From Candidatus Moraniibacteriota bacterium (lineage in GTDB: Bacteria > Patescibacteriota > Minisyncoccia > Moranbacterales > UBA1568), in contig CP064974.1 of NCBI GenBank assembly GCA_016699385.1, positions 131,242-195,241 on the forward strand: 64,000 bases of DNA, in the 5' to 3' direction. Of the stretch, positions 23,985 to 48,938 are shown one piece after another. The notes under the pieces are model-generated. The model was not told where the DNA came from and searched no databases. It worked only from the letters and a program-made list of their open reading frames with translations. Position 1 is the first letter of the stretch, and each line of letters starts with the position of its first letter. The position numbers were made by a program, and so were the translations under genes.

Positions 23985-24371
23985 GTGAATGATATGAAGA
24001 GAATTTTGATTATAGAGGATGAGAAACCATTGGCTCGAGCGTTGGAATTAAAGTTGGCGCATGTAGGATTTGAAACAAAAAGTGCTGTCAATGGAGAGGA
24101 AGGCTTGGCAATTTTGCAAGAGGAATCATTTGACCTTGTTCTGACCGACCTTGTTATGCCGAAAGTTGATGGATTTTCTGTATTGACCACTTTGCGGGAG
24201 TGGAATAATGCGACGCCAGTTATTGTGTTGACAAATCTGAGTCAGTTTGAGGATGAATCACGTGCTCGAGCACTTGGAGCGGCAGGATTTTTCGTGAAAT
24301 CAGATATATCGGTTGCTGAAATTGTTGAGCATATAAAGCATGTGTTCGATACATCTTCGAATGCCACCTGA
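23985..24371 (+). CDS. Stand-alone response-regulator receiver (CheY-like)
   Basis: ILIIEDE...FDLVLTDLVMPKVDG...VIVLTN...K pattern of REC domains. No output domain. Confidence 0.75.
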   Translation: MNDMKRILIIEDEKPLARALELKLAHVGFETKSAVNGEEGLAILQEESFDLVLTDLVMPKVDGFSVLTTLREWNNATPVIVLTNLSQFEDESRARALGAAGFFVKSDISVAEIVEHIKHVFDTSSNAT

Positions 24372-24518: not shown

Positions 24519-26171
24519 ATGGATATCAGTGCAGAAGAAATCAAAAGAATTCTTCTTGAGGGAAGCTATGTGACGCAGGACGACATTCGGAAGACGGAAG
24601 TGGCGGCAAGGGCTCGTAGCGTCTCGTTCACACAACTTCTTCTTGAAGATGGTTTGATGAGTAAAGATCTCTTAGGGCAGGCAATTGCCGAGTCGCTTGG
24701 TGTGCCGTATTCCGATTTGAATTCAACGTCCATATCGCCTCAGCAAGTACGGAGAATTCCAGAAGAAATAGCAAAACAATACCACGCAGTAGTTTTTTTG
24801 GAGAGTGAAGCTACAGTAATTATTGCAACTGATGCGCCGAAAGACCCCGCGTTATTGATCTCGATTTCGCCGATTTTCGTAGGAAAATCTATTTCAATGA
24901 CGTATTCTCTTTTGGAGGATATCGAGCCACTATTTGTTCACTATAAGACGTCTCTTGAAATGCGCTTTTCGAAAATCATCGAGAAAAATGATCGTGTTGC
25001 CACCGGTTTTTTGGAAGAAATATTTGAGGATGCATTGGTGCTTCGGGCATCTGATATTCATTTCGAACCACATGAAGATGGTACTGTAATTCGGTTTCGT
25101 ATTGATGGTGTACTGCAAAATGTCGGCAACATTCCAAAGGAATACTATGATACGCTTCTCAATCGAATCAAGGTGAAGAGTAGTTTGCGTATTGATGAGC
25201 ATTTTTCAGCGCAAGACGGGTCACTACGGCATGAGAAAGATGGGAAGGTTGTCGATATGCGGACATCGATTATTCCAACCGTGGAAGGGGAAAAAATTGT
25301 ATTACGCGTGCTTTCTGCGTATATTGAAGGACTGTCATTGTCCGATATCGGACTTTCTTCGGAGAATCAGGAACTCTTACAAATTTCGGCTAATAAGCCG
25401 TTTGGAATGATTTTGGTTGCAGGTCCAACTGGGAGCGGAAAAACAACGACGCTGTATTCGCTCATCAAACTGCTCAACAACACTGACATAAATATTACGA
25501 CCATTGAAGATCCAGTTGAATACAAGGTCCGTGGCGTTAATCAGATTCAGGTGAATCTGCAGACCCATTTGACCTTTGTTAAGGGTTTGCGATCAATTGT
25601 TCGTCAGGACCCCGATGTTATTTTGGTTGGTGAAATACGTGATCGAGAGACAGCAGAGATTGCTGTGAATGCAGCGCTCACGGGGCACCTTCTTCTTTCG
25701 ACCTTTCATGCTAATGACGCCGCGACAGCACTTCCTCGTTTATTTGATATGGGTATTGAACCTTTTCTCTTAGCTTCGACACTCGATGTTGTCATCGCAC
25801 AGCGTCTTGTGCGAAAAATATGTGATGCCTGTCGTCTGGGTGTTGCCAAAAGTCCAAAAGATATTGTTGTAACACAGCTTCACTCGATAGAGCCGTATTT
25901 TCACGAGGAATCCATGACATTCTATGAAGGAAAAGGATGCGCAATGTGTAGTGGTACGGGGTACAAGGGGCGAACTGCGCTTTTCGAATATATTCGCGTT
26001 ACGCCGGCAATGCAGGCGCTTATCGTGAAGAAACCCTCAACACAGGAAATATGGAAACTCGCGAGAACCGAAGGATCAGTATCGCTTTTTGAGGATGGTG
26101 TCTTAAAAGTAAAAAACGGTATTACAACAATTGAGGAATTGCTTCGCGTTGCCGAGCCTCCAGCTGTGTAG
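24519..26171 (+). CDS. pilB: Type IV pilus assembly ATPase PilB (GspE family)
   Basis: N-terminal GSPII_E_N-like region. Walker A AGPTGSGKTTTLYS, Asp box, His box GEIRD, and a C-terminal tetracysteine CDAC...CAMC. Confidence 0.85.
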   Translation: MDISAEEIKRILLEGSYVTQDDIRKTEVAARARSVSFTQLLLEDGLMSKDLLGQAIAESLGVPYSDLNSTSISPQQVRRIPEEIAKQYHAVVFLESEATVIIATDAPKDPALLISISPIFVGKSISMTYSLLEDIEPLFVHYKTSLEMRFSKIIEKNDRVATGFLEEIFEDALVLRASDIHFEPHEDGTVIRFRIDGVLQNVGNIPKEYYDTLLNRIKVKSSLRIDEHFSAQDGSLRHEKDGKVVDMRTSIIPTVEGEKIVLRVLSAYIEGLSLSDIGLSSENQELLQISANKPFGMILVAGPTGSGKTTTLYSLIKLLNNTDINITTIEDPVEYKVRGVNQIQVNLQTHLTFVKGLRSIVRQDPDVILVGEIRDRETAEIAVNAALTGHLLLSTFHANDAATALPRLFDMGIEPFLLASTLDVVIAQRLVRKICDACRLGVAKSPKDIVVTQLHSIEPYFHEESMTFYEGKGCAMCSGTGYKGRTALFEYIRVTPAMQALIVKKPSTQEIWKLARTEGSVSLFEDGVLKVKNGITTIEELLRVAEPPAV

Positions 26172-26229: not shown

Positions 26230-27669
26230 ATGAAGAACACAAAAAAAATCCAAAATCCTTTCGCGACAGTCGGATTGGGGAAAGAATTGGATTATCTTAT
26301 CGAAAATCTAAGCATGCTCATTGCGGCGGGCATGCCGGTTGTAAGTGCGCTCGATTCTATTACTGAAGAAATGCGGTCACGTCGGATGAAGCGAGCATTG
26401 GCTGCGATGCGAGCGAATGTCGAAGGCGGTTCGTCACTTTGGGTAGCATTGGAGAAAAGCGGGTTCTTTCGGGAACATGTCATATCGCTTATTCGAATTG
26501 GTGAAGAGTCTGGCAGACTTGTTGAGAATCTCAAGGTTGTTTCTCTTGAGGAAGAGAAAGACCGCCTCTTTCGTTCAAAACTTCGTTCTGCTTTGGCTTA
26601 TCCAATTTTTGTGCTCGTAGTGACGGCAGTTGTTGGCATTGGTATCGCATGGTTTATTTTGCCGAAACTCGCTCTTGTCTTTTCGCAACTCAAAATTACC
26701 CTTCCGTGGATTACGAAAGTCTTGATTAGCGCCGGTGTGTTTTTGAATGCCTCTGGATGGAAAGTTCTCCCATCCGCAGCATTGTTTTTCACTGCACTGT
26801 TTTATTTCGTATTCTTCTTTTCAAAAACAAAGGTTGTCGGGCAGTATATTCTTCTGGTCATTCCTGGAGTGAGACAACTCGTGAAAGAGGTGGAGACAGC
26901 GAGATTTGGTTATCTCCTGGGGACATTGCTTTCGGCAGGAGTGCCGGTAACGAAATCGCTTGATTCTTTGGTAAATGCTACTGATTCGGTTCCATATCGG
27001 AAGCTATTTATGCATCTTCGCGATTCAGTCGAAGAGGGGAATTCTTTTCAGAAGAGCTTTTCCTCGCTTCGTCGTGGCAATCATCGTATTTCTCGACCAA
27101 TACAGCAGCTTATCGCTGCCGCTGAACAATCCGGAAATCTTCCGGAGACGTTTTTAAAAATTGGATCAATCTACGAAAGCAAAGCGGATGCAACGACGAA
27201 AAACCTTACGGTTATTTTGGAGCCGGTACTTTTGGTGCTGGTGTGGCTCGGGGTGGTAGGGGTGGCGCTTGCGGTTATATTGCCTATTTACAGTTTGGTT
27301 GGAGGTATCAATCAGGGGGAATCTTCTCCTGTACCTCCTTCGGCAGTTGAGGAAAATGCAATGGAGACACTTCCGAGTTCGATGAATGAGGTGGTGCCAG
27401 CCGAATCGTCTGAGCCAACGGAGAATGTTGAACCGAAAGATGCATTGAATGCTCCGTTGATGCTTCGTGTACAGAAAACCGGTGTCGGATATCTTAACGT
27501 GCGTGATGCTCCTTTGGTATCTGGCGCTCTGGTTGGTAAGATCTCGCCAGGGGATACCCTCATATATACTAAAGAACAGTCCGGTTGGTTCTCTGTTGTT
27601 CTGTCGAGTGGGAATGAAGGGTGGGTGTCTGGAAAATATGTGGAAACGATAAGTGAACAATTGCCATGA
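26230..27669 (+). CDS. pilC: Type IV pilus platform protein PilC (GspF family) with an extra C-terminal SH3b-like domain
   Basis: Two GspF repeats and three TM segments. After the last TM there is a ~110-aa tail ending LRVQKTGVGYLNVRDAPLVSGALVGKISPGDTLIYTKEQSGWFSVVLSSGNEGWVSGKYVE, which has the bacterial SH3 pattern. Confidence 0.8.
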   Translation: MKNTKKIQNPFATVGLGKELDYLIENLSMLIAAGMPVVSALDSITEEMRSRRMKRALAAMRANVEGGSSLWVALEKSGFFREHVISLIRIGEESGRLVENLKVVSLEEEKDRLFRSKLRSALAYPIFVLVVTAVVGIGIAWFILPKLALVFSQLKITLPWITKVLISAGVFLNASGWKVLPSAALFFTALFYFVFFFSKTKVVGQYILLVIPGVRQLVKEVETARFGYLLGTLLSAGVPVTKSLDSLVNATDSVPYRKLFMHLRDSVEEGNSFQKSFSSLRRGNHRISRPIQQLIAAAEQSGNLPETFLKIGSIYESKADATTKNLTVILEPVLLVLVWLGVVGVALAVILPIYSLVGGINQGESSPVPPSAVEENAMETLPSSMNEVVPAESSEPTENVEPKDALNAPLMLRVQKTGVGYLNVRDAPLVSGALVGKISPGDTLIYTKEQSGWFSVVLSSGNEGWVSGKYVETISEQLP

Positions 27670-28106
27670 GGTCATCAGTACGAGCATTTACATTGCTCGA
27701 AGTATTGCTCTCCGTTGCAGCACTCGCCGTTATTGCTGGAATTTCCTTGCCGATATATCAGTCATTTCAGGTGCGGAACGATTTAGATATCGCTGCGACG
27801 ACGGTGGCGCAGAGTTGTCGCCGAGCTACGGTACTTGCACAGGCATCTGATGGCGACACGAATTGGGGTGTTCATATTCAACCAGGAAGTATCGTGTTGT
27901 TTCGTGGAACAAGCTATGTTGCACGAAACGCGACGTTTGATGAAATTTTCGCCATGCCAACGAGTATTGTGTCGTCGGGTATGTCTGACGTTGTTTTTGC
28001 AAAATTCACGGGCATGCCAACGACAACTGGTACAACGACACTTACTTCTTCTACCAATGAAACTCGAACAATCACCATCAATGCCAAAGGAATGGTTAAC
28101 TTCTGA
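27666..28106 (+). CDS. Pseudopilin / minor pilin (prepilin-type N-terminal methylation domain)
   Basis: N-terminus RAFTLLEVLLSVAALAVIAGISLP matches the class III signal and hydrophobic alpha1 helix. Confidence 0.7.
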   Translation: MRSSVRAFTLLEVLLSVAALAVIAGISLPIYQSFQVRNDLDIAATTVAQSCRRATVLAQASDGDTNWGVHIQPGSIVLFRGTSYVARNATFDEIFAMPTSIVSSGMSDVVFAKFTGMPTTTGTTTLTSSTNETRTITINAKGMVNF

Positions 28107-29487
28107 AAAGAAACACGGATTTTCACTCGTGGAGGTGCTTCTCTCGGGTGCGGTTTTTTCGCTCCTTGTGACGGCATTAGTTGGTGCCTATCTCTATGGC
28201 GAAGAGGCAACAGTGCTTGCGGGCAATCGAACGCGAGCGGTGTTTTTTGCGGAGGAAGGGCTTGAGGCGACGCGCAATATTCGCGACTCGGATTTCATGA
28301 ACCTTTCAGACGGTGTTCATGGACTTGCAATCTCAGGGGGACAATGGAATTTCTCCGGTTCTTCTGATGTGGATGGTATCTTTACGCGATCAGTGACGAT
28401 TGCGCCAGTGAGTTCCAATCGAAAGAGTGTGACATCAACGGTCAGTTGGCAACAAAATGCAGAGCGAACGGGAACCGTGGCACTCTCTTCGTATCTCACT
28501 AATTGGATTGTATCCGGAATAGGAAATTGGGCGAGTCCGCTCGAGGAAGCGAGTGTTGACGCGTCGGGAAATGCCGACGGACTCAAAGTGCAGTATCAGG
28601 ATAGTTTTGCCTATGTTGTGCGCAATGTCGGTACGGATAATTTTCTCGTATTCGATGTAAGCGATTCGGTGAACCCTTCGCTCGTTGGGTCACTTACGCT
28701 TGCTGGGAGGCCGAGTAATATTTCGATTGCGGGAAATTATGCCTATGTTTCTAGTTCCGATAATAATGAAGAGCTGCAGATTGTAGATATTTCGACGCCC
28801 GTATCGCCGAGTCTTGCGGGGAGCTATAATGCTCCCGGAAATGCCAATGTGATTGGTGTCTTTGCCAGCGGATTAACCGCATATATTGTGCGGGCGAATA
28901 GTTCGTCAGACGAATTTTTGATTATCAATGTCGCTTCCCCTACATCACCCTCCCTTGTTGGCTCGCTTAATCTTGGAGCAAATGGAAATGAAGTGGTTGT
29001 GTCTGGAAATGCTGCGTATATCGCTTCGAGCGATAATAGCGAGGAACTTAAAGTCGTGAATATATCGACACCTGCATCCCCATCGCAAATCGGCTCACTG
29101 AATCTCTCTGGAAATACCGACGCTATTACTATTGCCTTCACCGGTTCGACGGTATTGCTTGGACAAGGAGATAAACTTTTTACCGTGAATATTTCCACTC
29201 CAGCGAGTCCGGCCGTGCTCGGGTCAGTCGATCTTTCTGGTACGGTGAATGATATTGCGCTTGTGTTTGGTAATGCAAATACGTATGTATACACGGCGAC
29301 CAGCAGAAATAGTGCGGAATTCCAAGTTGTTGACATTTCTTCACTTGCGTCGCCAATGCTTTTTGGATCGGTTGATGTTTCGGGTAACAATAATCTTTTT
29401 GGCATTGCCTACGATGAGACGATTGATCGCGCTTTCGGCGTCGGCACCTCCAATAGCGAAGAGTTCATTGTTCTTGCGCCACAATAA
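28081..29487 (+). CDS. Pilin-like protein with C-terminal LVIVD-type beta-propeller repeats (candidate pilus-tip adhesin)
   Basis: Start taken at MPKEW...HGFSLVEVLLSGAVFSLLVTALVGAY (prepilin motif). The rest of the protein has at least 8 tandem ~40-aa repeats of the form ...ELQIVDISTPVSPSLAGS..., ...EELKVVNISTPASPSQIGSLNLSGN..., ...FQVVDISSLASPMLFGSVDVSGN.... Confidence 0.65.
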   Translation: MPKEWLTSEKKHGFSLVEVLLSGAVFSLLVTALVGAYLYGEEATVLAGNRTRAVFFAEEGLEATRNIRDSDFMNLSDGVHGLAISGGQWNFSGSSDVDGIFTRSVTIAPVSSNRKSVTSTVSWQQNAERTGTVALSSYLTNWIVSGIGNWASPLEEASVDASGNADGLKVQYQDSFAYVVRNVGTDNFLVFDVSDSVNPSLVGSLTLAGRPSNISIAGNYAYVSSSDNNEELQIVDISTPVSPSLAGSYNAPGNANVIGVFASGLTAYIVRANSSSDEFLIINVASPTSPSLVGSLNLGANGNEVVVSGNAAYIASSDNSEELKVVNISTPASPSQIGSLNLSGNTDAITIAFTGSTVLLGQGDKLFTVNISTPASPAVLGSVDLSGTVNDIALVFGNANTYVYTATSRNSAEFQVVDISSLASPMLFGSVDVSGNNNLFGIAYDETIDRAFGVGTSNSEEFIVLAPQ

Positions 29488-29490
29488 TCT

Positions 29491-30027
29491 ATGAGTAATT
29501 TCAGAAAAACACTGTCGAGTTCGTCCAGTTGCTTAGGATTTACGATTATCGAGCTTCTTCTTTATGTGGCAATCGCCTCAATTCTTCTTTTGGCGTCGTC
29601 ACTTTTTCTTTCGGTACTTCTTGAATCCCGAGTGAAGAATCAAACGATAGCCGAAGTAGAAGGGCAAGGTGCTGCGGTGCTGCATATCCTGATGCAATCT
29701 GTTCGCAATGCAGAGAGTATCAATGTGCCGTCTCCTGGAACGAGTGCCTCGTCAGTGTCTCTTACTACAATAGTTTCGGGGAATAATCCAACCGTATTCG
29801 ACCTTTCATCGGGGACATTTCGTATGAAAGAGGGTTCATCTTTAGCGACAGCACTTACGAATACGAGGGTTGTCGTTTCGAACCTGACCTTTACGAATCT
29901 ATCTCGCTCGAGCACGCCGGGGACGGTGCGTATTCGGTTTACTGTTGCAGCGGTGAATACTTCGGGACGAAACGAGTATTCTTTCTCAAAAATATTCACA
30001 ACATCGGCAACGCTGCGACAGCCGTGA
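29491..30027 (+). CDS. Pseudopilin / minor pilin
   Basis: N-terminus GFTIIELLLYVAIASILLLASSLFLSVLLE is a prepilin-type methylation motif followed by the TM helix. Confidence 0.7.
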   Translation: MSNFRKTLSSSSSCLGFTIIELLLYVAIASILLLASSLFLSVLLESRVKNQTIAEVEGQGAAVLHILMQSVRNAESINVPSPGTSASSVSLTTIVSGNNPTVFDLSSGTFRMKEGSSLATALTNTRVVVSNLTFTNLSRSSTPGTVRIRFTVAAVNTSGRNEYSFSKIFTTSATLRQP

Positions 30028-30045: not shown

Positions 30046-30489
30046 ATGCAATATCTCATGTCTCCATGGTTTTATCGCAAATTCAAAAATATGTTGGTAA
30101 AGAATCAATCCGGATATGTGACTCTCTTGAGCGTTCTTGTGGTTGGAGCGGTCGGCGTGGCGGTTTCGACGTCACTTCTTCTTTTGGGATTGGGGATTTC
30201 TCGGACAGGATTCTCTTTTCAGCAATTGTATCAAGCGAAAGCACTTTCCTCCGCCTGTACAGAGGAAGCGCTTCAGAAAGTGAGAAATGACACGTTGTTT
30301 TTCGGAAGCGGTTCACTGTCTCTCGGACAGGGAAACTGTGACTATACCGTAACGAATCAGGGCGGGCAAAACAGACTCGTGACAGTAACGGGCACCGTTG
30401 GCACGATTGTCCGAAGAACAAAAGTGATATTAAGCACTATTAATCCGAAAATAACTATAACCTCATGGCAGGAGATAAGCAGTTTTTAA
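30046..30489 (+). CDS. Putative minor pilin (PilX-like)
   Basis: N-terminal SGYVTLLSVLVVGAVGVAVSTSLLLLGLG hydrophobic segment resembles a degenerate prepilin helix. Position is inside the pilin gene run. Confidence 0.45.
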   Translation: MQYLMSPWFYRKFKNMLVKNQSGYVTLLSVLVVGAVGVAVSTSLLLLGLGISRTGFSFQQLYQAKALSSACTEEALQKVRNDTLFFGSGSLSLGQGNCDYTVTNQGGQNRLVTVTGTVGTIVRRTKVILSTINPKITITSWQEISSF

Positions 30490-30542: not shown

Positions 30543-31019
30543 GTGTCTTTTATGAGGGGTGTAATGGATTTTGTGTCGTTATCAAGGAGAAGACAAAAGG
30601 GTTTCACTTTACTTGAAATTCTCTTGGTCGTCGCAGCAATTGGTATTTTGGCAGGTATCGTTATTCTCGCGATAAATCCGTCGAAGCAGCTTGGTGATAC
30701 GCGAAACGCTCAGCGACGTTCTGACGTGAATACGATTCTTAATGCAGTGTATCAATATGCGATTGATAATAATGGCACTTTGCCGGCATCTATAACGACA
30801 ACGGCAACGGGTGTCTGCAAGACTGGAGGAACGTGTACGAGTCTTATTGATTTGGGTGTCCTTACCATAAACGAGAAGTACCTTGTTTCTCTACCGTATG
30901 ATCCGACTGGATCGACAGCAAATAGCACGGGGTACAATATTGCCAAATCTGCCAATGGACGAGTGACAGTGTCAGCGCCAAGTGCAGAGCAGAGCGCAAC
31001 TATCAGTGTCACGCGATAA
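30543..31019 (+). CDS. Type IV major pilin (PilA-like), paralogue 1
   Basis: [44 protein letters not shown] is a canonical class III signal plus alpha1-N helix (Glu at +5). The C-terminus [21 protein letters not shown] is shared with paralogue 2. The true start may be the internal ATG at 30564. Confidence 0.8.
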
Positions 31020-31036
31020 ATATAAAATATACATGT

Positions 31037-31495
31037 ATGAAGAATAAAAAAGCATTCACGCTTATAGAAATCTTGCTAGTTGTTGCGGCAATCGCTATTT
31101 TGGCAGGTATCGTTATTCTTGCGATAAATCCGTCGAAGCAGCTTGGTGATACGCGAAACGCGGAGCGTCATGCGGATGTGACAACGATACTCAACGCGGT
31201 CTATCAGTACTCGCTGGATAATAATGGAGCTTTGCCAACTATTCCGTTGAATTCGACTTGTGACAATACTGCTGCTTATCAGATATGCAAAGCGGGTGCA
31301 ACGGGAACATGTTCGGCTGGTGTTGATATCTCCGTCATTACAACCAATCAGAAGTATGTGACGAGCATTCCTCTCGATCCATCTGTTTCGTCAACAGATG
31401 GAACGGGATATTACATTGTGCGGAGTTCGAATAATCGAGTGACGGTCTGTGCGCCAAGCGCCGAGCAAGGAGCGACTATTAGTGTGACGCGGTAG
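31037..31495 (+). CDS. Type IV major pilin (PilA-like), paralogue 2
   Basis: [48 protein letters not shown]... The N-terminus (~55 aa) and C-terminus (~25 aa) are nearly identical to paralogue 1; the centre has diverged. Confidence 0.85.
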   Translation: MKNKKAFTLIEILLVVAAIAILAGIVILAINPSKQLGDTRNAERHADVTTILNAVYQYSLDNNGALPTIPLNSTCDNTAAYQICKAGATGTCSAGVDISVITTNQKYVTSIPLDPSVSSTDGTGYYIVRSSNNRVTVCAPSAEQGATISVTR

Positions 31496-32085: not shown

Positions 32086-32759
32086 TGACGCTTGAGAGCA
32101 TGTCAACGAAGGCGATAAATACAACCGAAGTGATATTGAGAACGTCTGAGCCATTTGTGTTCACTGCCGGACAGTATGTGACAGTGACGTTGCCTACGTT
32201 GTATCATCTTCAGGAGCGAGAGCAGTATCGAGAGTTTTCACTCATTTCTCCCCCAGAAGATACGCGGCGACTTGCTATTGTGTTTCGGAATTCTAATAGT
32301 CACTTCAAACAAGAGATTCTGCGGGAGCGGGAAGTTGGAAGGGATATTAAAGTGTCTATTGAAGGTCCGAAAGGAGTTTTCACTCTTCCTAAAGATATGA
32401 GTATTCCGATAGTATTTTTGGCAGGCGGTGTCGGTATTGCGCCGTTTCTGAGCATGATGCGGCATATTGCAAATGCGAAAATTTCGGCAAATATAACACT
32501 ATTTTATTATAATCGCAATAAAGAAAGCGCGGCATACCTCGAAGAATTGAGAGGATGCAAACATCTTGTAAGCTTCATTCCTATTTTTGGGGATATTGCG
32601 CCGGAGCCGATAGAATCATATGTGAAGAAATATTCAGAACAAAGCTTGTGGTACCTGGCAGGTCCTCGCGGGATGGTCAGAGTGGCTCGGGAGATTTTGA
32701 CGAAGCTTGCTATTGACGATCGATATATAAAATCTGAAGAATTCTCCGGTTATGAATGA
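32070..32759 (+). CDS. FNR-like FAD/NAD(P)-binding oxidoreductase domain protein
   Basis: FTAGQYVTVTLP (beta-barrel FAD domain), REFSLISPP (RxYS-type motif), GPKGVF, and the NAD(P) motif IVFLAGGVGIAPFLSMMRH. Confidence 0.65.
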   Translation: METRMMTLESMSTKAINTTEVILRTSEPFVFTAGQYVTVTLPTLYHLQEREQYREFSLISPPEDTRRLAIVFRNSNSHFKQEILREREVGRDIKVSIEGPKGVFTLPKDMSIPIVFLAGGVGIAPFLSMMRHIANAKISANITLFYYNRNKESAAYLEELRGCKHLVSFIPIFGDIAPEPIESYVKKYSEQSLWYLAGPRGMVRVAREILTKLAIDDRYIKSEEFSGYE

Positions 32760-34380
32760 CATATTTCAATCACATATGAAGAGAGATCTTTCTTCTGAAG
32801 AATATGATGCATTGTTGATGGCTGTGAGCCAAGTGGCACTTGTATCGATTACTGATTCTCGAGGAACAATTGTTTATGCAAATGACGTATTTGTAAGTGT
32901 GTCAAAGTATTCGCATGAAGAATTAATCGGTCAGAACCATCGAATATTGAAGTCTGGAGATCAGCCTGATTCATTGTTTGAGGATCTTTGGAAGACAATT
33001 TCTTCTGGAAGGGTGTGGCGAGGAGAAATCAAGAATCGGGCAAAGGATGGGGTCTGCTATTGGGTGGACACGTCGATTGCGCCTATACTCAATGTTTCTG
33101 GTATGCCGGAGCAATACATCGCTGTTTACTTTCTTGTTACAGGAAGGAAAGATATCGAGGAGAATATTGTCAGACAGAGTGAGGAATTTGAGAAAGCGAA
33201 GCGAATCACGTTGAATATGCTTGAAGATGTTAAGGAAGAGCGAAATCGGGCAGAATCGCTTGCTTCTGATTTGAAGAAATTCAAAATTGCGCTTGATGGG
33301 ACATTTGATCATGTTGTTATCACTGATCCGAATGGTATTGTTTTGTATGCAAATGCCGGATTGGAACGAATCACTGGATTTAGCAGGGAAGAAGTTCTCG
33401 GAAAGAAAGTGGGCACAAAGGAACTCTGGGGAGGAAATATGAGTCAGGAATTCTATGAGGAACTTTGGCGAACAATTAAGGTCGAGAAGAAGCCCTTTAC
33501 AGGCGAAATTTCCAATACAAGGAAGGATGGAGTTGCGTATCAAGCGCTTTCAAGTATTTCGCCTATTGTGAGCAAGAACGGTGTCCTGGAATTTTTTGTC
33601 GGTATTGAGCGTGACATTACAAAAGAGAGAGAGATTGACAGCGCAAAGACAGAGTTTGTATCACTTGCCTCGCATCAGCTGCGAACACCACTCTCTGCTA
33701 TAAACTGGTATACGGAAATGCTCCTTTCAGGAGATGCTGGTGCGCTCACTGATGTTCAGAGAGAATATCTCGAAGAGGTAAGTCATGGAAGTCATCGCAT
33801 GGTGGAGCTTGTCAATGCTCTTCTCAATGTTTCAAGGATCGAATTGGGAACCTTTGCAGTTCAACCGGAACCAACGGATATTATAACTCTTGCTCAGGAT
33901 GTTATTAAAGAACTCAAACCAAAAATTCTTGAGAAAAATTTTCATGTAGAAGAAAAATTTTCAGAGAATCTTCCAAAGATGAATGTCGATCCGAAATTGA
34001 CGCGAATTGTGTTCCAAAATCTTTTGACAAACGCTGTAAAATATACACCTCCAGGGGGAACGATTTCCATCTCAGTTGCCATGAATCAAGATGGAAAGAT
34101 ATTTACGATTTCTGTTGCAGACACAGGATATGGAATTCCAAAAGAGGATTGGCCACGAATATTTACCAAGCTTTTTCGAGCGTCGAATATCTGCGAGAAA
34201 GAAACGGATGGCACTGGACTCGGACTCTATATTATAAAATCCATAATTGAACATTCTGATGGAACGGTGGCCTTCAAATCAGAAGAAGGAAAAGGAACGA
34301 CCTTTACGATTACATTGCCCGTCTCTGGCATGCACCAGCAAGAGGGAAATAAGCAAATTGAGTGGAAAGAGCCCCTTTAA
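32752..34380 (+). CDS. Cytoplasmic PAS/PAC sensor histidine kinase
   Basis: Two PAS/PAC modules (…GRVWRGEIKNRAKDGVCYWVD…; …KKPFTGEISNTRKDGVAYQAL…). HisKA with H-box LASHQLRTPLSAI. HATPase_c N, G1 (DTGYGIP) and G2 (GTGLGL) boxes. No TM segments. Confidence 0.85.
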   Translation: MNDIFQSHMKRDLSSEEYDALLMAVSQVALVSITDSRGTIVYANDVFVSVSKYSHEELIGQNHRILKSGDQPDSLFEDLWKTISSGRVWRGEIKNRAKDGVCYWVDTSIAPILNVSGMPEQYIAVYFLVTGRKDIEENIVRQSEEFEKAKRITLNMLEDVKEERNRAESLASDLKKFKIALDGTFDHVVITDPNGIVLYANAGLERITGFSREEVLGKKVGTKELWGGNMSQEFYEELWRTIKVEKKPFTGEISNTRKDGVAYQALSSISPIVSKNGVLEFFVGIERDITKEREIDSAKTEFVSLASHQLRTPLSAINWYTEMLLSGDAGALTDVQREYLEEVSHGSHRMVELVNALLNVSRIELGTFAVQPEPTDIITLAQDVIKELKPKILEKNFHVEEKFSENLPKMNVDPKLTRIVFQNLLTNAVKYTPPGGTISISVAMNQDGKIFTISVADTGYGIPKEDWPRIFTKLFRASNICEKETDGTGLGLYIIKSIIEHSDGTVAFKSEEGKGTTFTITLPVSGMHQQEGNKQIEWKEPL

Positions 34381-34397: not shown

Positions 34398-34790
34398 GTG
34401 GATATTATTATGATATCGGTAGAGAAAAAAATTCTCATTGTTGAAGATGATGACTCTTTGAGGAGAGCAGTCGTTGAGAAACTCTCTCGCGAAGGATTTA
34501 TTGCACTGCAGGCAAACAATGGTCTTGCTGGTCTCGAATGTGCGTTTCAGGAACACCCCGACTTAATATTGCTCGATGTAATTATGCCGAAAATGGATGG
34601 ACTAACTATGCTCTCCCGATTGCGCGAGGATGTTTGGGGGAAGAGCGCGCAAGTGATTATGCTCACTAATGTGAGTGATGGGGAGAGTGTGTTGGAATCT
34701 TTGAATCAAGCGGCGTTTGATTATCTTGTGAAATCGGATTGGAAGCTTGAGGATGTTGTCAAGAAGATTCGCGAGCGCCTTGAAAAGTAA
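34398..34790 (+). CDS. Stand-alone response-regulator receiver (CheY-like)
   Basis: KILIVEDDDS...PDLILLDVIMPKMDGLTML...VIMLTN...K REC pattern. Lies immediately downstream of the kinase. Confidence 0.75.
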   Translation: MDIIMISVEKKILIVEDDDSLRRAVVEKLSREGFIALQANNGLAGLECAFQEHPDLILLDVIMPKMDGLTMLSRLREDVWGKSAQVIMLTNVSDGESVLESLNQAAFDYLVKSDWKLEDVVKKIRERLEK

Positions 34791-45731: not shown

Positions 45732-48700
45732 ATGTCCATGGAGCAGGAAACTGATATATCCATCGAAAAAAAGGCACGAGGGAAAAAGGGAACTTCCGGA
45801 ACGAACCCGGCAGTTGCTAGTGTGAATGTTTCTAGAAAAGGTGATGTTCCTGTGACTCTTTCGACTTCTGAAAATGAAACACTCAAATACTCCAAGTCAG
45901 TTAATGGTGATATGCAAAAAAAAGAAATTGATCGTGTATTGAAAAACAATGTGCAAATGGAACAAGTGATAGAACTCGAAAATGGAATACAGGATGCTCG
46001 ACGACAGGCAGAAAAAGAAGCTTTGGAAAAGCTTCTTCCGAAGTTGAAAGATTTGTTCCCGAATGATTGCAAACGCTTAGTTCGCAGTGGTAAAGATAAA
46101 ACCGTAGTTGAGTCTGCAATGCCAGTCTCTCAGGATGATCTTATAGAGAAATTTTTAAAAAAACACTCGAGTGAAGTATGTAAAAACCTTTTGAAAGGAA
46201 AATTAGGAAATATAGCAAAGATAATCTTTACTTTCTTCAAAAGTAGTGACTTTACACAATTCCTTGGACTTAAAACTGATAAGGAGAAAGAAATGGAGAA
46301 ACACCGCGTGAAAAAGCTGCTTAAAGAACAAGGTTTAAACGAATGGTCAAATGAAACGGAACCCCAGAAAGCAGGCTCTGGTACTAGGAGAATAGTTGAT
46401 GATTTGGAAGAGATGCGTAAGACGAATGGAGATGATGCGGATATGTCTTCGAATGATGGCGATGCTCAAGGTAAGGATATTGCAGAAGGAGATCAAGAGG
46501 TAAAGAGTGATACGAATGGCGGATACTTTGGGGCGCCAGATTATAAGGAAGCAATTGATGATGTGACGCAAGAAGAACAAGAGAGTATAGAAAAACTCAA
46601 GCAGATTAGGGGTGTAAAAAATTTCGAGGAACTTTTGATGCTTTTGGATGATCCGGACTTCCCGGGTATTCAGGGGTCGAAACAATTTTATTCTGGTGAT
46701 GATTTGAGAAGAATTGTCGCGGGAGCTCGAGAAATGGGGGTGACGAATTTTGTGACGAGTTCTCAAGGGTTGCGTGATACAGTGGAGCGTCTGTTGCATC
46801 AAGAAAAAGAGGGGAAGATTGAAGCTATGAAAGAAGATGGTATTGTGGAAGGTTTTGGAATGGTTGGTGGTGATTCGGGAGTTGAAGATTCCTCGGAAAC
46901 AGGGGATGAAAATGCTCTTGAAGATGAATATTTCCCTCAAGGAGAAGTGTCCACACAAGAACTGCATAGTCGTGCTCAGGAATTGAAGAGTGAAGCTGAT
47001 GCAGCTCGGGACGATTATTTGAAATTAAAGCATCGAAATGAGTCGAAATGGTTGGCGGTCAAGAGAGCACTGTTTGCATCACGCTCCAAGGAACCGCCAA
47101 AGAACCTCGTGGACGAGTTGGCGGTCTTGGAAAGCAACTGGAAATATAAATTGACGCTTTATAAAAATGCTGTTGTTGAACTAGCGAAACGCGAATCGGA
47201 GGATCGAAAACTGGATGGAAAAGGAAAGGGCTTACTCATGGCGGAGGCGATTCGCGGGCTTGATTTTCAAGGATCGATTGAAAATTACAATGCCTGGAAA
47301 GATGCGGCATGGGGAAATAGGGAAGACTCCCGGTTTCTTCGCGGACTCGGTCGTGCGAAGGATTGGACGGAACAATACAGAGCGCTCGATTGGAAGAAGC
47401 GCATGGCGATTTCCGCGCTTGCTTTGGGTACAGGTGTTGCCGGGGTTGCCACGGGGTCTGCGGGATTGGTGGGTCTTGGTGTCGCGGGAAGCACGCTGAT
47501 TCGATTGTTGGGGTCGTACGGCGTTGGACGTGTTTCATATGAGTATCTGGAGGGTCGAGCGAATAGAAAAACGGTTCAGTATCACGAGGCAGCACTCTCG
47601 AATATTGAGAAGATAGAAGATATAGGATTCTTGGAGCAGAGAATGAAATCGTATGCCGATCGTACACAAGAGAATCTCGATCGAGCAATCGCAGGAAATC
47701 GGAAGCGGGTCGTGACGAGTGTTGCACTTGGCACATTGCTCTTTGCTGGTGGATCGGCATTTGCTCATCATGGAGCGATACGGGAAGTTTCGGGAAAGGT
47801 TTCAAGTGGCTTTTCAAAGCTTCTTGAGCAAATGAAAATCATTACCGGAATCGAGGATTTTCACAGTGCTCCAATTTCACTAGATGCCTCTCCTCTCGAT
47901 GTCTACAATGTCCCTCCGAGCGAACTCACCCCTTCTCAACCGAGTGTATCAGTTGATACAGGTGCTTCTCCTGCTCGTATTGCTTCAGGTGTGGGAAGTG
48001 TAGAGGTTTCCCCTTCCAGTGCGACGGAAGTCGTTCGTCAGGTGAGTCCTCCCGCATCAGAAAGTGTGAATGTTGGTGCTGGCATGAGAGAACTGGTTAT
48101 CAATCACCAAGGCGGTTCCATTGAGGAAGTAATGAACAAAGCTGGTATTGACGGGGCGGAGAGTCATCGAGCGTATCTTCGTTTTTTGGAAGAGATGAAA
48201 AAAGCTGGAAAGAATATCGCTCAGCTCGATAACGTTCTTCAAAAGAGCATGCATATAGGGGATGATGTGAGCGTGATTATAAATCCGGATGGCACAGCAA
48301 GAATTTTGCAAATCACCCGAAAGTCGGGAGAGGCGATTCTTCAGAATATCACGGCACCTGGAGCGGGAGATATTGTCCACAGCGCGAGAATTGAACTGAC
48401 TTCTCCTTCACCGCAGTCAAGTGCAGCTCCACTTTCGCGGTCAATTGCGCCGCCAACCCCTTCTCCTGACGTCGCTGTATCGAGTCCTCCTATTCCTGCC
48501 GAATCTATCCCTCAAGTGCCTCTCGAGTCGCTTGATATTTCTGCTCAGGGAAGTGAATATTTGAAGAATGTGGGTACAATAGTGAAAGAGAGGTTGACAT
48601 TTCTTCCTCTCTCTCAGGGACAAAAGGATCTTATAGAAAGTATTTTTGGCGCCAGAGTTCCGGTTTCTGGGACTGAACCGACGCCGAGCTCTGTGCTTTT

Positions 48701-48938
48701 TGTGAAGGATTCGCTTGGGCGAGCACTTTTTCCGTCGGAAGATGTGGCACGTTGGATGCGGAATGATGTTGAATACATAAAAGAGAAAGTGAATAGAGCT
48801 GTGTACGCTGGTATTGTTCGCATCGGTGGCGAATCACTTCGCATTGGCAAAGTAATTTCACCAGGTGAAACCGTCGGAAGCTGGCTTACAAAAATGGCGA
48901 AATATATTCTTACCCATCCGCTTGAGTCGAAAAAATAA
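45732..48938 (+). CDS. Very large (1068 aa) acidic coiled-coil protein with a central pair of TM helices; no known family
   Basis: The N-terminal ~550 aa are Glu/Asp/Lys-rich with predicted coiled coils. Two Gly/Ala-rich hydrophobic helices occur at ~555-600 and ~650-680 (ALALGTGVAGVATGSAGLVGLGVAG; VALGTLLFAGGSAFA). The C-terminal ~370 aa include a Pro/Ser-rich linker. Confidence 0.6.
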   Translation: MSMEQETDISIEKKARGKKGTSGTNPAVASVNVSRKGDVPVTLSTSENETLKYSKSVNGDMQKKEIDRVLKNNVQMEQVIELENGIQDARRQAEKEALEKLLPKLKDLFPNDCKRLVRSGKDKTVVESAMPVSQDDLIEKFLKKHSSEVCKNLLKGKLGNIAKIIFTFFKSSDFTQFLGLKTDKEKEMEKHRVKKLLKEQGLNEWSNETEPQKAGSGTRRIVDDLEEMRKTNGDDADMSSNDGDAQGKDIAEGDQEVKSDTNGGYFGAPDYKEAIDDVTQEEQESIEKLKQIRGVKNFEELLMLLDDPDFPGIQGSKQFYSGDDLRRIVAGAREMGVTNFVTSSQGLRDTVERLLHQEKEGKIEAMKEDGIVEGFGMVGGDSGVEDSSETGDENALEDEYFPQGEVSTQELHSRAQELKSEADAARDDYLKLKHRNESKWLAVKRALFASRSKEPPKNLVDELAVLESNWKYKLTLYKNAVVELAKRESEDRKLDGKGKGLLMAEAIRGLDFQGSIENYNAWKDAAWGNREDSRFLRGLGRAKDWTEQYRALDWKKRMAISALALGTGVAGVATGSAGLVGLGVAGSTLIRLLGSYGVGRVSYEYLEGRANRKTVQYHEAALSNIEKIEDIGFLEQRMKSYADRTQENLDRAIAGNRKRVVTSVALGTLLFAGGSAFAHHGAIREVSGKVSSGFSKLLEQMKIITGIEDFHSAPISLDASPLDVYNVPPSELTPSQPSVSVDTGASPARIASGVGSVEVSPSSATEVVRQVSPPASESVNVGAGMRELVINHQGGSIEEVMNKAGIDGAESHRAYLRFLEEMKKAGKNIAQLDNVLQKSMHIGDDVSVIINPDGTARILQITRKSGEAILQNITAPGAGDIVHSARIELTSPSPQSSAAPLSRSIAPPTPSPDVAVSSPPIPAESIPQVPLESLDISAQGSEYLKNVGTIVKERLTFLPLSQGQKDLIESIFGARVPVSGTEPTPSSVLFVKDSLGRALFPSEDVARWMRNDVEYIKEKVNRAVYAGIVRIGGESLRIGKVISPGETVGSWLTKMAKYILTHPLESKK

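What the first reader, a model, noticed from the sequence alone, without database searches (positions are those of the whole stretch)
28081..29487. Prepilin-type protein carrying tandem LVIVD-like beta-propeller repeats: candidate pilus-tip adhesin
Within the pilin gene run, this 468-aa protein starts with a bona fide prepilin N-terminus (GFSLVEVLLSGAVFSLLVTALVGAY). Its remaining ~400 aa are at least 8 tandem ~40-aa repeats with a consensus like EELxVVDISTPxSPSxVGSxxLSGN. This is the LVIVD-type repeat, predicted to form beta-propellers on prokaryotic surface proteins. A pseudopilin presenting a propeller domain is a plausible adhesive tip module, for example for host-cell attachment. This fusion is not a textbook pilin architecture.
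Basis: partly seen in the sequence, partly recalled or inferred. Interest (0 to 1): 0.65.

Follow-up and report, generated by a model that had tools for sequence, protein, structure and literature searches.

The report
Pilus-tip pilin carrying a beta-propeller
This gene from an ultrasmall Moranbacteria (CPR) bacterium encodes a minor type IV pilin fused to a seven-bladed LVIVD beta-propeller, probably shown at the pilus tip as a binding module; it is real and widespread in these bacteria, but it is one member of an already catalogued class of "modular pilins".

Summary
The ORF is real (28081, or more likely ATG 28057, to 29487, + strand). It is 100% identical to QQR77649.1, a hypothetical protein of a Candidatus Moranbacteria MAG.

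It has a canonical class III signal (G-1, F+1, E+5). A predicted ~135-aa pilin fold follows, then a short linker and a confidently predicted closed 7-bladed propeller (Pfam LVIVD E=4.6e-25).

The gene is second of four minor-pilin genes, the GspI/PilV position. The operon RR-pilB-pilC-mp1-THIS-mp3-mp4-major pilins is conserved in all 80 related Patescibacteria loci fetched.

New here: the same pilin "carrier" module carries other cargo in close relatives. These are a ~55-aa Cys-rich knot, ~125-aa beta domains, other repeats, or several propellers. Carriers up to 84-92% identical bear different cargo.

Best reading: a tip-displayed ligand-binding or adhesin module. That function is inferred, not shown.

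Prior art: Raynaud 2021 lists IPR012902-IPR013211 architectures. Saccharibacteria TM7x PilX2 is a propeller-bearing minor pilin needed for efficient host binding.

Verdict: new member of a known kind, moderate interest.

The parts
28057..29487 (+). Complete gene for the modular minor pilin. Residue numbers in this report count from 28081.
   Evidence: It is 100% identical to P0001 = QQR77649.1 (IPJ67_00665, Ca. Moranbacteria, 1.11-Mb contig).
28057..28119 (+). Class III (prepilin) leader peptide ending in Gly-1. It is 21 aa from 28057, or 13 aa from 28081.
   Evidence: G/A at -1 in 48/49 homologues. The leader motif MKxExxQSxxKxW recurs in homologues.
28120..28278 (+). Mature N-terminus FSLVE... 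(F+1, E+5), the hydrophobic alpha1N segment and the long alpha1 helix (residues 14-66). Includes the family motif AEEGLEAxRNIRD.
   Evidence: E18 is invariant. AF2 predicts a helix at 16-66.
28312..28500 (+). Pilin-module antiparallel beta-sheet (residues 78-140) with the conserved WQQN motif. W89, R103, W123 and W142 are invariant.
   Evidence: The pilin-module model has pLDDT 82.
28507..28539 (+). Inter-module linker (residues ~143-153). The cargo-exchange breakpoint lies at about this position.
   Evidence: pLDDT <50 at residues 144-146. DNA similarity to L051 ends at 28472 and protein similarity ends at residue 142.
28525..28671 (+). LVIVD repeat 1 (residues 149-197).
28672..28803 (+). LVIVD repeat 2 (residues 198-241). 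This is the best Pfam LVIVD stretch (209-250).
28804..28944 (+). LVIVD repeat 3 (residues 242-288).
28945..29076 (+). LVIVD repeat 4 (residues 289-332).
29077..29205 (+). LVIVD repeat 5 (residues 333-375).
29206..29349 (+). LVIVD repeat 6 (residues 376-423).
29350..29484 (+). LVIVD repeat 7 (residues 424-468), ending in the conserved ...APQ.
23985..24371 (+). Response-regulator receiver gene just upstream of pilB. It is found in this position in most related loci.
24519..26171 (+). PilB-type assembly ATPase (T2SSE plus MshEN domains).
   Evidence: PF00437, E=2.9e-119.
26230..27669 (+). PilC-type platform protein (2 x T2SSF) with a C-terminal SH3_3 domain.
27666..28106 (+). Minor pilin 1, in the GspH/FimU position (AFTLLE signal). 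It overlaps the focal gene.
   Evidence: weak GspH hit, PF12019 at 16.1 bits. Synteny.
29491..30027 (+). Minor pilin 3, in the GspJ/PilW position (GFTIIE signal).
30046..30489 (+). Minor pilin 4, in the GspK/PilX/ComGG-like position. It has no Glu at +5 (G|YVTLL), as expected for a tip cap.
30543..31019 (+). Major-pilin-like gene A (GFTLLE signal; weak GspG-like hit).
31037..31495 (+). Major-pilin-like gene B, a paralogue of gene A.

Best explanation
The gene encodes a bimodular minor type IV pilin of a Patescibacteria (Ca. Moranbacteria) type IV pilus.

Proposed sequence of events:
1. A prepilin peptidase would cut after Gly-1.
2. The N-terminal helix (with Glu+5) and a small beta-sheet form a GspI/PilV-like 'carrier' pilin.
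3. The carrier co-assembles with the three neighbouring minor pilins (GspH-like, GspJ-like, and a GspK/PilX-like cap that lacks Glu5) into the complex that primes the filament. That complex ends up at the tip.
4. A short flexible linker tethers a ~35-kDa, strongly acidic, cysteine-free 7-bladed LVIVD beta-propeller. It is too bulky for the filament body, so it is displayed at the tip.
5. At the tip it most likely binds a ligand on a host bacterium or a surface, acting as an adhesin or receptor-binding module.

The carrier is a conserved scaffold. The cargo is an exchangeable cassette.

Shown: the sequence motifs, domain content, predicted folds, conserved operon position and cargo exchange.
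Inferred: signal cleavage, incorporation into the pilus, tip location and binding function.
For: Signal and pilin fold:
- Class III signal with G-1, F+1 and E+5; E+5 is invariant in 49/49 homologues.
- AF2 model with mean pLDDT 87.9 and pTM 0.70. It shows a helix at 16-66, a pilin sheet at 78-140 and a low-confidence linker at 144-146. These are followed by 28 strands, i.e. 7 blades of 4 strands, with most 10-residue block means >90.

Propeller identity:
- LVIVD at E=4.6e-25; the family matches LVIVD 49/49 and Beta_propel 47/49.
- Foldseek finds only generic 7-bladed propellers.

Operon position:
- [RR]-pilB-pilC-mp1-FOCAL-mp3-mp4-major pilin(s) is the recurring order in the 80 related loci; at short or truncated contigs only part of it is seen.
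- mp4 lacks E5, whereas the five other pilins have it.
- A profile of the pilin module aligns best with E. coli GspI (72% probability, 94 columns reaching into the sheet). GspH, GspJ and GspG align only over the N-terminal 22-39 residues.

Cargo is dispensable for the scaffold and is exchanged:
- In the syntenic relative L051, PilB is 80% and major pilin B 94% identical. Its orthologue keeps the pilin module (75% identity over residues 1-142) but has a 60-aa Cys-rich tail. DNA similarity stops at 28472 and resumes at 29536.
- Of the 120 best hits to the pilin-module profile, 82 carry the Cys-rich cargo.
- Carriers 82-92% identical bear different cargo. 81 of 305 nearest neighbours differ in cargo class, although some of those differing pairs involve truncated sequences in the 'other' class.
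- Proteins of 650-2000 aa start with the same carrier.

Analogies from the literature:
- Modular pilins are argued to be tip-exposed adhesins (PMC8179133).
- Deleting TM7x PilX2, a minor pilin with a 7-bladed propeller, roughly halves host binding (PMC11623550).
Against: - There is no experimental or sequence evidence for any ligand.
- The propeller is fairly conserved across very different Patescibacteria lineages (mean pairwise identity 50%). That fits a generic ligand or an internal structural partner better than host-specific recognition.
- No face of the propeller stands out as hypervariable in the loop analysis, which was done without coordinates.
- The GspI/PilV assignment rests on gene order and a 72% hhalign probability. 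TIGR01707 scores 12.8 bits against a cutoff of 44.35. Foldseek of the pilin module is not significant; EpsI appears at E=0.55.
- The N_methyl HMMs are below threshold for this protein.
- No prepilin peptidase, PilT or PilM/N/O was identified among the window ORFs that I scanned. The rest of the genome was not available.
Confidence: 0.6

Rival explanations
1. A PilY1-like priming or regulatory factor. The propeller docks on the other minor pilins and controls pilus initiation, extension/retraction or surface sensing, rather than binding an external ligand.
For: - It sits among the core minor pilins.
- The propeller is conserved at ~50% identity across distant lineages, like the conserved C-terminal propeller of PilY1.
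- No PilY1 domain was detected in the pilin-cluster proteins scanned.
Against: - The same carrier works with a 55-aa Cys-rich knot, a ~125-aa beta domain or no cargo in close relatives. The propeller therefore cannot be a required part of the priming machinery.
- There is no Pfam PilY1 (PF05567) hit, and no PilY1 chain among the top 50 Foldseek PDB hits.
Confidence: 0.13
2. The class III signal serves only for export and membrane anchoring. In this reading the protein is a cell-surface or 'bindosome'-like display protein that is not built into a filament.
For: - LVIVD/choice-of-anchor-type propellers occur with many alternative anchors. There is a weak TIGR04312 choice-of-anchor B hit (49 bits).
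- Giant non-pilin LVIVD proteins are the closest non-family relatives.
Against: - The operon position between the other minor pilins is invariant in 80 loci.
- The pilin globular module is strongly conserved and E+5 is invariant. Neither would be needed for a mere anchor.
Confidence: 0.1
3. An enzymatic propeller, for example a hydrolase, lyase or esterase acting on the host envelope, delivered at the pilus tip.
For: - The best PDB fold hit is a 7-bladed phosphotriesterase (5hrm, E=1e-12).
- Raynaud 2021 lists pilins fused to peptidase modules.
Against: - Identity to 5hrm is only 13%.
- The invariant residues are Gly, Pro, Trp and one Glu at the equivalent position in several blades (E231, E322, E413). 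This looks structural.
- There are no conserved His/Asp/Cys clusters.
Confidence: 0.07
4. A DNA receptor of a competence-type pilus. CPR pili have been proposed to take up DNA.
For: - The pilins give weak ComG-like HMM hits.
- DNA uptake has been suggested for Parcubacteria pili (PMC5220378).
- Large minor pilins such as ComZ bind DNA (cited in PMC8179133).
Against: The propeller has a net charge of -22 (8 K+R against 30 D+E). The family median is -19 and the range is -32 to -9. That is unfavourable for binding DNA.
Confidence: 0.05

Closest known systems
Modular type IV pilins (Streptococcus sanguinis PilB with a vWA module and PilC with a lectin module; Raynaud et al. 2021, PMC8179133; PMC9934059)
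   Same: - An N-terminal pilin module with a class III signal, a short linker and a bulky non-pilin module.
- A monoderm-type envelope without a secretin.
- Predicted tip display and a binding function.
- The exact architecture IPR012902-IPR013211(xN) is in their Dataset S1: 8+8+7+4+1+1 proteins, plus one with IPR019198. The text mentions an 860-aa Falkowbacteria protein with 12 copies.
   Different: - The cargo here is an LVIVD propeller, which that paper calls a 'motif of unknown function'. No member has been studied.
- The carrier here is a distinct, highly conserved CPR pilin module in the GspI/PilV operon position.
- The N_methyl HMM detects only 23/49 family members, so InterPro-based counts understate the family.
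PilX2 of Nanosynbacter lyticus TM7x (Saccharibacteria), PMC11623550
   Same: [quoted passage not shown]
- It is proposed as the tip adhesin. Deletion lowers host binding from ~10.6% to 4.6% without abolishing filaments.
   Different: - The PilX2 propeller is RCC1-type, not LVIVD.
- PilX2 lacks a predicted PilD signal, whereas this protein has a canonical G|FxxxE.
- PilX2 is named for a different operon position.
PilY1/PilC of Pseudomonas, Neisseria and Myxococcus
   Same: A beta-propeller protein presented at the T4P tip together with the four core minor pilins. It acts in adhesion.
   Different: - PilY1 is not a pilin and has no class III signal.
- Its propeller (PF05567/IPR008707) is the docking module and its N-terminus is the variable effector. 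Here the pilin is the docking module and the propeller is the exchangeable effector.
- There is no PF05567 hit and no PilY1 among the top fold hits.
GspI/EpsI/PilV core minor (pseudo)pilins
   Same: - A small alpha1 helix plus short beta-sheet module with E+5.
- Second gene in an H-I-J-K-like quartet.
- The best profile match is E. coli GspI.
   Different: - Classical GspI/PilV have no C-terminal cargo.
- The HMM and fold matches are below significance.
LVIVD-repeat / choice-of-anchor B surface proteins (PF08309; Adindla et al. 2004, PMC2447325; TIGR04312)
   Same: The same ~42-45-aa repeat, predicted to form a propeller on prokaryotic surface proteins.
   Different: - Here it is anchored by a pilin rather than by a TM, sortase, PEP-CTERM or S-layer type anchor.
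- The TIGR04312 score is 49 bits, below its cutoff of 100.
- No solved LVIVD structure was found by sequence.

Membership tests
Type IV pilin / class III signal peptide proteins | A short hydrophilic leader ending in Gly(-1), followed by a ~20-residue hydrophobic segment with Glu at +5. | tested here: met
   KKHG|FSLVEVLLSGAVFSLLVTALVGAY. In the family, E+5 is 49/49, F+1 is 47/49 and G/A at -1 is 48/49.
Type IV pilin / class III signal peptide proteins | A match to the N-terminal methylation-motif HMMs (PF07963, TIGR02532) above the curated cutoff. | tested here: not met
   PF07963 scores 17.4 bits against 21.2. TIGR02532 scores 14.3 against 16.3. 23 of 49 family members match at E<=0.01. This is a sensitivity problem of a 24-27-residue model, not an absence of the motif.
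Type IV pilin / class III signal peptide proteins | The pilin 'lollipop' fold: a long N-terminal alpha1 helix packed on an antiparallel beta-sheet. | tested here: met
   The AF2 models show a helix at 16-66 and strands at 78-140, with pLDDT 82-88. These are predictions only.
Type IV pilin / class III signal peptide proteins | Encoded together with the assembly ATPase, the platform protein and other pilins. | tested here: met
   pilB, pilC, three other minor pilins and two major-pilin genes are adjacent. This arrangement is conserved in 80 loci.
Type IV pilin / class III signal peptide proteins | Cleavage and N-methylation by a prepilin peptidase, and incorporation into filaments. | not testable with these tools
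   This needs proteomics or microscopy. No prepilin peptidase was identified among the window ORFs scanned.
LVIVD-repeat beta-propeller (PF08309) | An HMM match above cutoff, in tandem copies. | tested here: met
   87.1 bits against 20.2, E=4.6e-25. Seven sequence repeats with 33% mean pairwise identity. 49/49 homologues match.
LVIVD-repeat beta-propeller (PF08309) | The repeats close into a beta-propeller. | tested here: met
   AF2 predicts 28 strands in 7 groups of 4, with pLDDT mostly >90. Foldseek hits to 7-bladed propellers reach TM up to 0.78 on the target. This is a prediction; no solved LVIVD relative exists.
GspI/PilV-class core minor pilin | Second gene in a GspH-I-J-K / FimU-PilV-W-X type quartet, with a cap subunit that lacks Glu5. 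| tested here: met
   The gene order is mp1 (weak GspH hit), focal gene, mp3, then mp4 without E5.
GspI/PilV-class core minor pilin | Sequence or fold homology to GspI/PilV. | tested here: inconclusive
   TIGR01707 gspI scores 12.8 bits against 44.35. hhalign to E. coli GspI gives 72% probability over 94 columns, better than GspH, J, G or K. Foldseek finds EpsI 2ret_C at E=0.55. Some JGI homologues are named 'PilV'.
PilY1/PilC tip adhesins | A PilC/PilY1 beta-propeller domain (PF05567/IPR008707) in a non-pilin protein. | tested here: not met
   No PF05567 hit at E<=1. No PilY1 chain in the top 50 PDB fold hits. The protein is itself a pilin.
Modular pilins sensu Raynaud et al. 2021 | [quoted passage not shown] | tested here: met
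   The architecture IPR012902-IPR013211 is listed in Dataset S1 of PMC8179133. That IPR013211 is the LVIVD entry comes from my own knowledge.
Choice-of-anchor B family (TIGR04312) | An HMM score above the cutoff of 100 bits. | tested here: not met
   49.2 bits, E=4.4e-13, partial match to residues 186-342.

The most novel reading that the evidence does not exclude
Across Patescibacteria, one conserved GspI/PilV-position minor pilin may be the universal 'cargo carrier' of the type IV pilus tip. Its C-terminal module would then be a cassette that is frequently exchanged between close relatives. The known cassettes are the LVIVD propeller, a ~55-aa disulfide-rich knot, ~125-aa beta domains, other repeat propellers and multi-module chains up to ~2000 aa. 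The cassette would set which host or surface the epibiont attaches to, much like receptor-binding-protein swapping in phage tail fibres.
Probability: 0.3. Interest if true: 0.65.

Novelty: new member of a known kind. Interest (0 to 1): 0.4.

Why it matters
How ultrasmall CPR/Patescibacteria recognise and attach to their hosts is an open question. A 2024 perspective (PMC11665869) names tip-located minor pilins as the components to test.

This family gives a concrete, widely conserved candidate. It is a single carrier pilin in a fixed operon position, and its exposed module differs between close relatives. If the cargo sets attachment specificity, cargo type could be used to predict or compare host ranges from metagenomes, and the isolated modules could be used as probes for host receptors.

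For type IV pilus biology it is a further example of the modular-pilin principle, in which a propeller is covalently fused to a core minor pilin. This contrasts with PilY1, a separate propeller protein that docks on the minor pilins. The principle itself is not new.

Tried and rejected
- Foldseek of the pilin-module model against PDB gave nothing significant. Phage coat proteins ranked top and EpsI came at rank 35.
- A profile of the pilin module against PDB sequences gave only noise, such as LigA and LT-IIB.
- A profile of the whole family against PDB gave only a designed Kelch-like protein at E=0.0013.
I rebuilt it as A3.
- The look-up of encoding contigs had no record for P0001.
- Correlating pilin-module identity with propeller identity within the LVIVD class gave r=0.10. 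I do not interpret this, because the divergences are saturated.
- The loop-by-loop entropy analysis showed no clearly hypervariable propeller face.
- DNA-receptor idea: considered and rejected because of the charge of -22.
- PilY1 membership: considered and rejected because there is no PF05567 hit.
- Spurious antisense ORFs such as 28824-29405 (-): rejected, because the + strand ORF has hundreds of homologues.
- No Shine-Dalgarno-like sequence distinguishes the two candidate starts.
Full report
**1. What is in the sequence**

The + strand ORF ending at 29487 is intact. From ATG 28081 it encodes 468 aa. NCBI's version starts at ATG 28057 and has 476 aa. It is QQR77649.1, 'hypothetical protein IPJ67_00665', from a Candidatus Moranbacteria/Moraniibacteriota MAG on a 1,111,322-bp contig, and it is 100% identical.

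The longer start is the more likely one. It gives a leader MKLEQSPSMPKEWLTSEKKHG, and the pattern MKxExxQSxxKxW recurs in many homologues. Neither start has an obvious Shine-Dalgarno sequence.

The mature end reads G|FSLVEVLLSGAVFSLLVTALVGAY. This is a textbook class III signal, with Gly-1, Phe+1, Glu+5 and a ~21-residue hydrophobic stretch. The short N_methyl HMMs fall just below their cutoffs: PF07963 at 17.4 against 21.2 bits, and TIGR02532 at 14.3 against 16.3. In 49 aligned homologues, however, Glu+5 is invariant, Phe+1 is 47/49 and Gly/Ala-1 is 48/49. Only 23 of those 49 are picked up by PF07963 at E<=0.01.

**2. Domain anatomy**

- Pfam LVIVD (PF08309) matches at E=4.6e-25 (87 bits, cutoff 20.2). 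Beta_propel (PF09826) matches at 1.9e-8.
- AlphaFold2 with a 49-sequence alignment gave mean pLDDT 87.9 and pTM 0.70.
- The model shows an alpha1 helix at 16-66, a pilin beta-sheet at 78-140 and a low-confidence linker (pLDDT <50 at 144-146). These are followed by 28 strands in seven groups of four (154-466), with most 10-residue block means above 90.
- The sequence repeats are 149-197, 198-241, 242-288, 289-332, 333-375, 376-423 and 424-468. Their mean pairwise identity is 33%.
- So there are seven blades over 320 aa, preceded by a ~135-aa pilin module.
- Foldseek against PDB returns only generic 7-bladed propellers at 11-14% identity: 5hrm phosphotriesterase, WD40 proteins and Ycf48.
- A family profile finds no solved LVIVD relative by sequence.
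- BFVD gives generic propellers as well. Some are in phage proteins with the intramolecular-chaperone auto-processing domain, and the best is a Pithovirus protein at 22% identity.
- The propeller is strongly acidic, with a net charge of -22 (family median -19), and has no cysteine.

**3. Context**

The gene is the second of four tightly packed or overlapping minor-pilin genes. They lie downstream of a response regulator, pilB (T2SSE, E=2.9e-119) and pilC (2 x T2SSF plus a C-terminal SH3_3 domain), and upstream of two major-pilin-like paralogues.

Five proteins of the cluster have G/A|F-x-x-x-E signals. The fourth minor pilin (30046-30489) has G|YVTLL with no Glu5 and gives weak ComGG hits. This is what is expected of a GspK/PilX-type cap.

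The first minor pilin has a weak GspH hit. A profile of the focal pilin module aligns best with E. coli GspI: 72% probability over 94 columns, extending into the beta-sheet. GspH, GspJ and GspG align only over the N-terminal 22-39 residues, and GspK does not align at all.

HMM and Foldseek support for GspI/PilV is sub-threshold. The class assignment therefore rests mainly on gene order.

**4. Relatives**

- The search for homologous proteins returned 798 hits. The best 120 cover 97-100% of the query and, apart from two ~790-aa proteins, are 448-503 aa long at 50-85% identity.
- An exhaustive search of 1.84 billion cluster representatives gave 5,188 hits at E<1e-30. About two-thirds of the best 150 are single-stretch, full-length family members. 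The rest are giant multi-propeller LVIVD proteins or longer pilin-led proteins.
- In GTDB species representatives, 230 relatives were confirmed. The 80 loci kept are all from Patescibacteria-type MAGs. They include many Parcubacteria groups, Gracilibacteria, Peregrinibacteria, WWE3 and Saccharimonadales. A few carry implausible labels such as 'uncultured Gammaproteobacteria'.
- All 80 loci show the same order around the focal gene: [RR]-pilB-pilC-mp1-FOCAL-mp3-mp4-major pilin(s). Short or truncated contigs show only part of it.

**5. The carrier/cargo finding**

Several loci matched only residues 1-142. In these, the same pilin module (55-75% identity, with the motifs AEEGLEAxRNIRD and WQQN) is followed by something else:

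- a ~55-60-aa Cys-rich module ending ...DTCCALP (L051, L058, L063, L065, L067, L069, L071, L077-L080);
- one or two ~125-aa beta domains (L061, L064, L076);
- a different ~45-aa repeat array (L074);
- in Peregrinibacteria, an LVIVD propeller plus an extra ~110-aa C-terminal domain.

None of the non-LVIVD cargos has a Pfam family.

L051 is a close, fully syntenic relative: uvrC is 72% identical, PilB 80%, and the major pilins 88% and 94%. Nucleotide similarity to the window runs up to 28472, is absent across the cargo region, and resumes at 29536. A second closed Moranbacteria genome (IPK84_04170, QQS15535.1, 209 aa) also has the Cys-rich version.

A search with the pilin-module profile alone gave 583 hits at E<1e-10. 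Of the 120 best, 82 have the Cys-rich cargo.

I then pooled 305 carriers for comparison:
- Pilin modules of different cargo classes are as similar to each other (57-63% mean identity) as LVIVD carriers are among themselves (53.5%).
- Modules 82-92% identical carry different cargo.
- In 81 of 305 cases the nearest neighbour has a different cargo class. Some of these differing pairs involve truncated sequences placed in the 'other' class.

Proteins of 650-2000 aa with intermediate domains and one or more propellers also begin with this carrier.

The pilin module is more conserved than the propeller, with mean column entropy 1.13 against 1.47 bits.

**6. How it most likely works**

Shown: the signal motif, the two predicted modules, the fixed operon position among core minor pilins, and cargo exchange on a conserved scaffold.

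Inferred from established T4P/T2SS knowledge:
- Minor pilins of the GspH-I-J-K / FimU-PilV-W-X type prime assembly and end up at the filament tip, and the Glu5-less subunit caps it. This is my own knowledge of Korotkov & Hol 2008 and Treuner-Lange 2020; the latter is cited in PMC11623550.
- The protein would be processed by a prepilin peptidase and built into the tip complex through its pilin module.
- It would present the ~35-kDa propeller on a short linker.
- A propeller of this size cannot be accommodated in the filament body. The absence of a secretin is expected for a CPR envelope, and it removes the size limit. This is the same argument used for S. sanguinis PilB (PMC8179133).

Close relatives replace the propeller with a 55-aa knot or other domains. 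The cargo is therefore not part of the assembly machinery but an effector, most plausibly a ligand-binding module.

The only experimental precedent in Patescibacteria is TM7x PilX2. It is a minor pilin with an RCC1-type 7-bladed propeller, and its deletion roughly halves host binding while filaments are still made (PMC11623550). The ligand here is unknown. The acidic surface argues against DNA.

The rather high conservation of the propeller across distant lineages argues for a generic ligand, or an internal partner, rather than a strain-specific receptor. This is the main weakness of the adhesin reading. The rival explanations are listed with their evidence in the structured fields.

**7. Comparison with what is known, and novelty**

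The architecture is catalogued. Raynaud et al. 2021 list IPR012902-IPR013211 in several copy-number variants, about 30 proteins in total. They mention an 860-aa Falkowbacteria protein with 12 copies of this 'motif of unknown function'. That IPR013211 is the LVIVD entry is from my own knowledge.

No paper in the searched library links LVIVD to pilin function. The concept of a modular minor pilin as a tip adhesin, and the specific idea of a propeller-bearing CPR minor pilin, are both published.

The protein is therefore a new, uncharacterised member of a known kind.

I did not find the following described in the papers searched:
- the family-level picture of one conserved carrier in the GspI/PilV position across Patescibacteria;
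- the several alternative cargos;
- the evidence for frequent cargo exchange.

This picture is consistent with the modular-pilin principle rather than a departure from it.

**8. Verdict**

Interest is moderate (0.4), mainly as a concrete, testable candidate for host or surface recognition in uncultured CPR bacteria.

Noticed in passing
L051:8001-8609; also L058, L063, L065, L067, L069, L071, L077-L080; P0268-P0387 (82 of 120): The same carrier pilin module often ends in a ~55-60-aa cysteine-rich module. Its consensus is roughly C..[YH]A...GY..GTCR.N..QC.N..E.Y..GGD..C......DTCCALP. It has no Pfam family. Among the best hits to the pilin-module profile it is the commonest cargo.
   Followed up: partly
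L061:7977-9233, L064, L076:7983-8813, P0270, P0279, P0306 and others: Another cargo class consists of one or two ~125-aa beta-rich domains with the motif '..NKEL.G..DIVIDKI.V.W..'. It has no Pfam hit.
   Followed up: partly
L074:8001-9521: A carrier pilin fused to eight or so ~45-aa repeats ('GDVGQYTSLALD...PRISYYD.SNK.LKYA.CD') that are not LVIVD. This is probably a different propeller type. Only a spurious sub-threshold Pfam hit was found.
   Followed up: no
window 26230-27669: The PilC platform protein has a ~130-aa C-terminal extension ending in a bacterial SH3_3 domain (PF08239, E=2e-10). The extension is also present in L051 and, judging by ORF length, in a subset of related loci. This is unusual for PilC.
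   Followed up: partly
window 28057-28119 and homologues (alignment A1): The family has long leader peptides, commonly ~20 aa, with a recurring motif MKxExxQSxxKxW ahead of the G|F cleavage site. That is longer than typical type IVa leaders.
   Followed up: partly
window 23985-24371; most of L001-L080: A stand-alone response-regulator receiver gene lies immediately upstream of pilB in the window and in most related loci. A PAS histidine kinase (32752-34380) and a second receiver (34398-34790) follow the pilin cluster.
   Followed up: partly
window 30543-31019 and 31037-31495: There are two tandem major-pilin-like paralogues with nearly identical N-terminal halves and C-terminal ends. In the relative L051 they are 88% and 94% identical to the window copies, which makes them the most conserved proteins of the cluster.
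   Followed up: partly
alignment A1: PF07963 (N_methyl) detects only 23 of 49 bona fide family members at E<=0.01. Domain-architecture censuses of modular pilins based on IPR012902 will therefore undercount this family by about half.
   Followed up: yes
L001, L008, L013, L017, L025, L027, L028, L034, L047, L051, L074, L077 (record titles): Some MAGs are labelled 'uncultured Gammaproteobacteria', 'Bdellovibrionales' or 'Cyanobacteria bacterium UBA9579' but carry the typical Patescibacteria pilus operon, with 45-75% identity to the Moranbacteria proteins. The taxonomic labels look unreliable.
   Followed up: no
L031:8001-9401, L025:7917-9382, L050:3-1200: Some orthologues are split by a stop or frameshift (L031, L050) or interrupted by masked N runs (L025). 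I did not determine whether these are assembly errors or pseudogenes.
   Followed up: no
window 45732-48938 and 50452-52968: A 1068-aa ORF has no Pfam match. A few kilobases downstream is an 838-aa protein with a weak TrwB/type IV coupling-protein domain (PF10412, 26.9 bits). This may be part of the T4SS-like system reported in Patescibacteria.
   Followed up: no
P0122-P0124, P0131, P0132, P0209 and others: The closest non-pilin relatives of the propeller are giant proteins of 3,000-6,000 aa with 13-20 LVIVD-propeller stretches. This suggests domain traffic between giant surface proteins and the pilin cargo.
   Followed up: no
L056, L057, L060, L062, L066, L068, L070, L072, L073: The Peregrinibacteria-type orthologues (~615-650 aa, 28-31% identity) add a ~110-150-aa C-terminal domain after the propeller, with no Pfam hit. 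Most also lack a detectable mp4 and have ~3 kb between mp3 and the major pilin.
   Followed up: no
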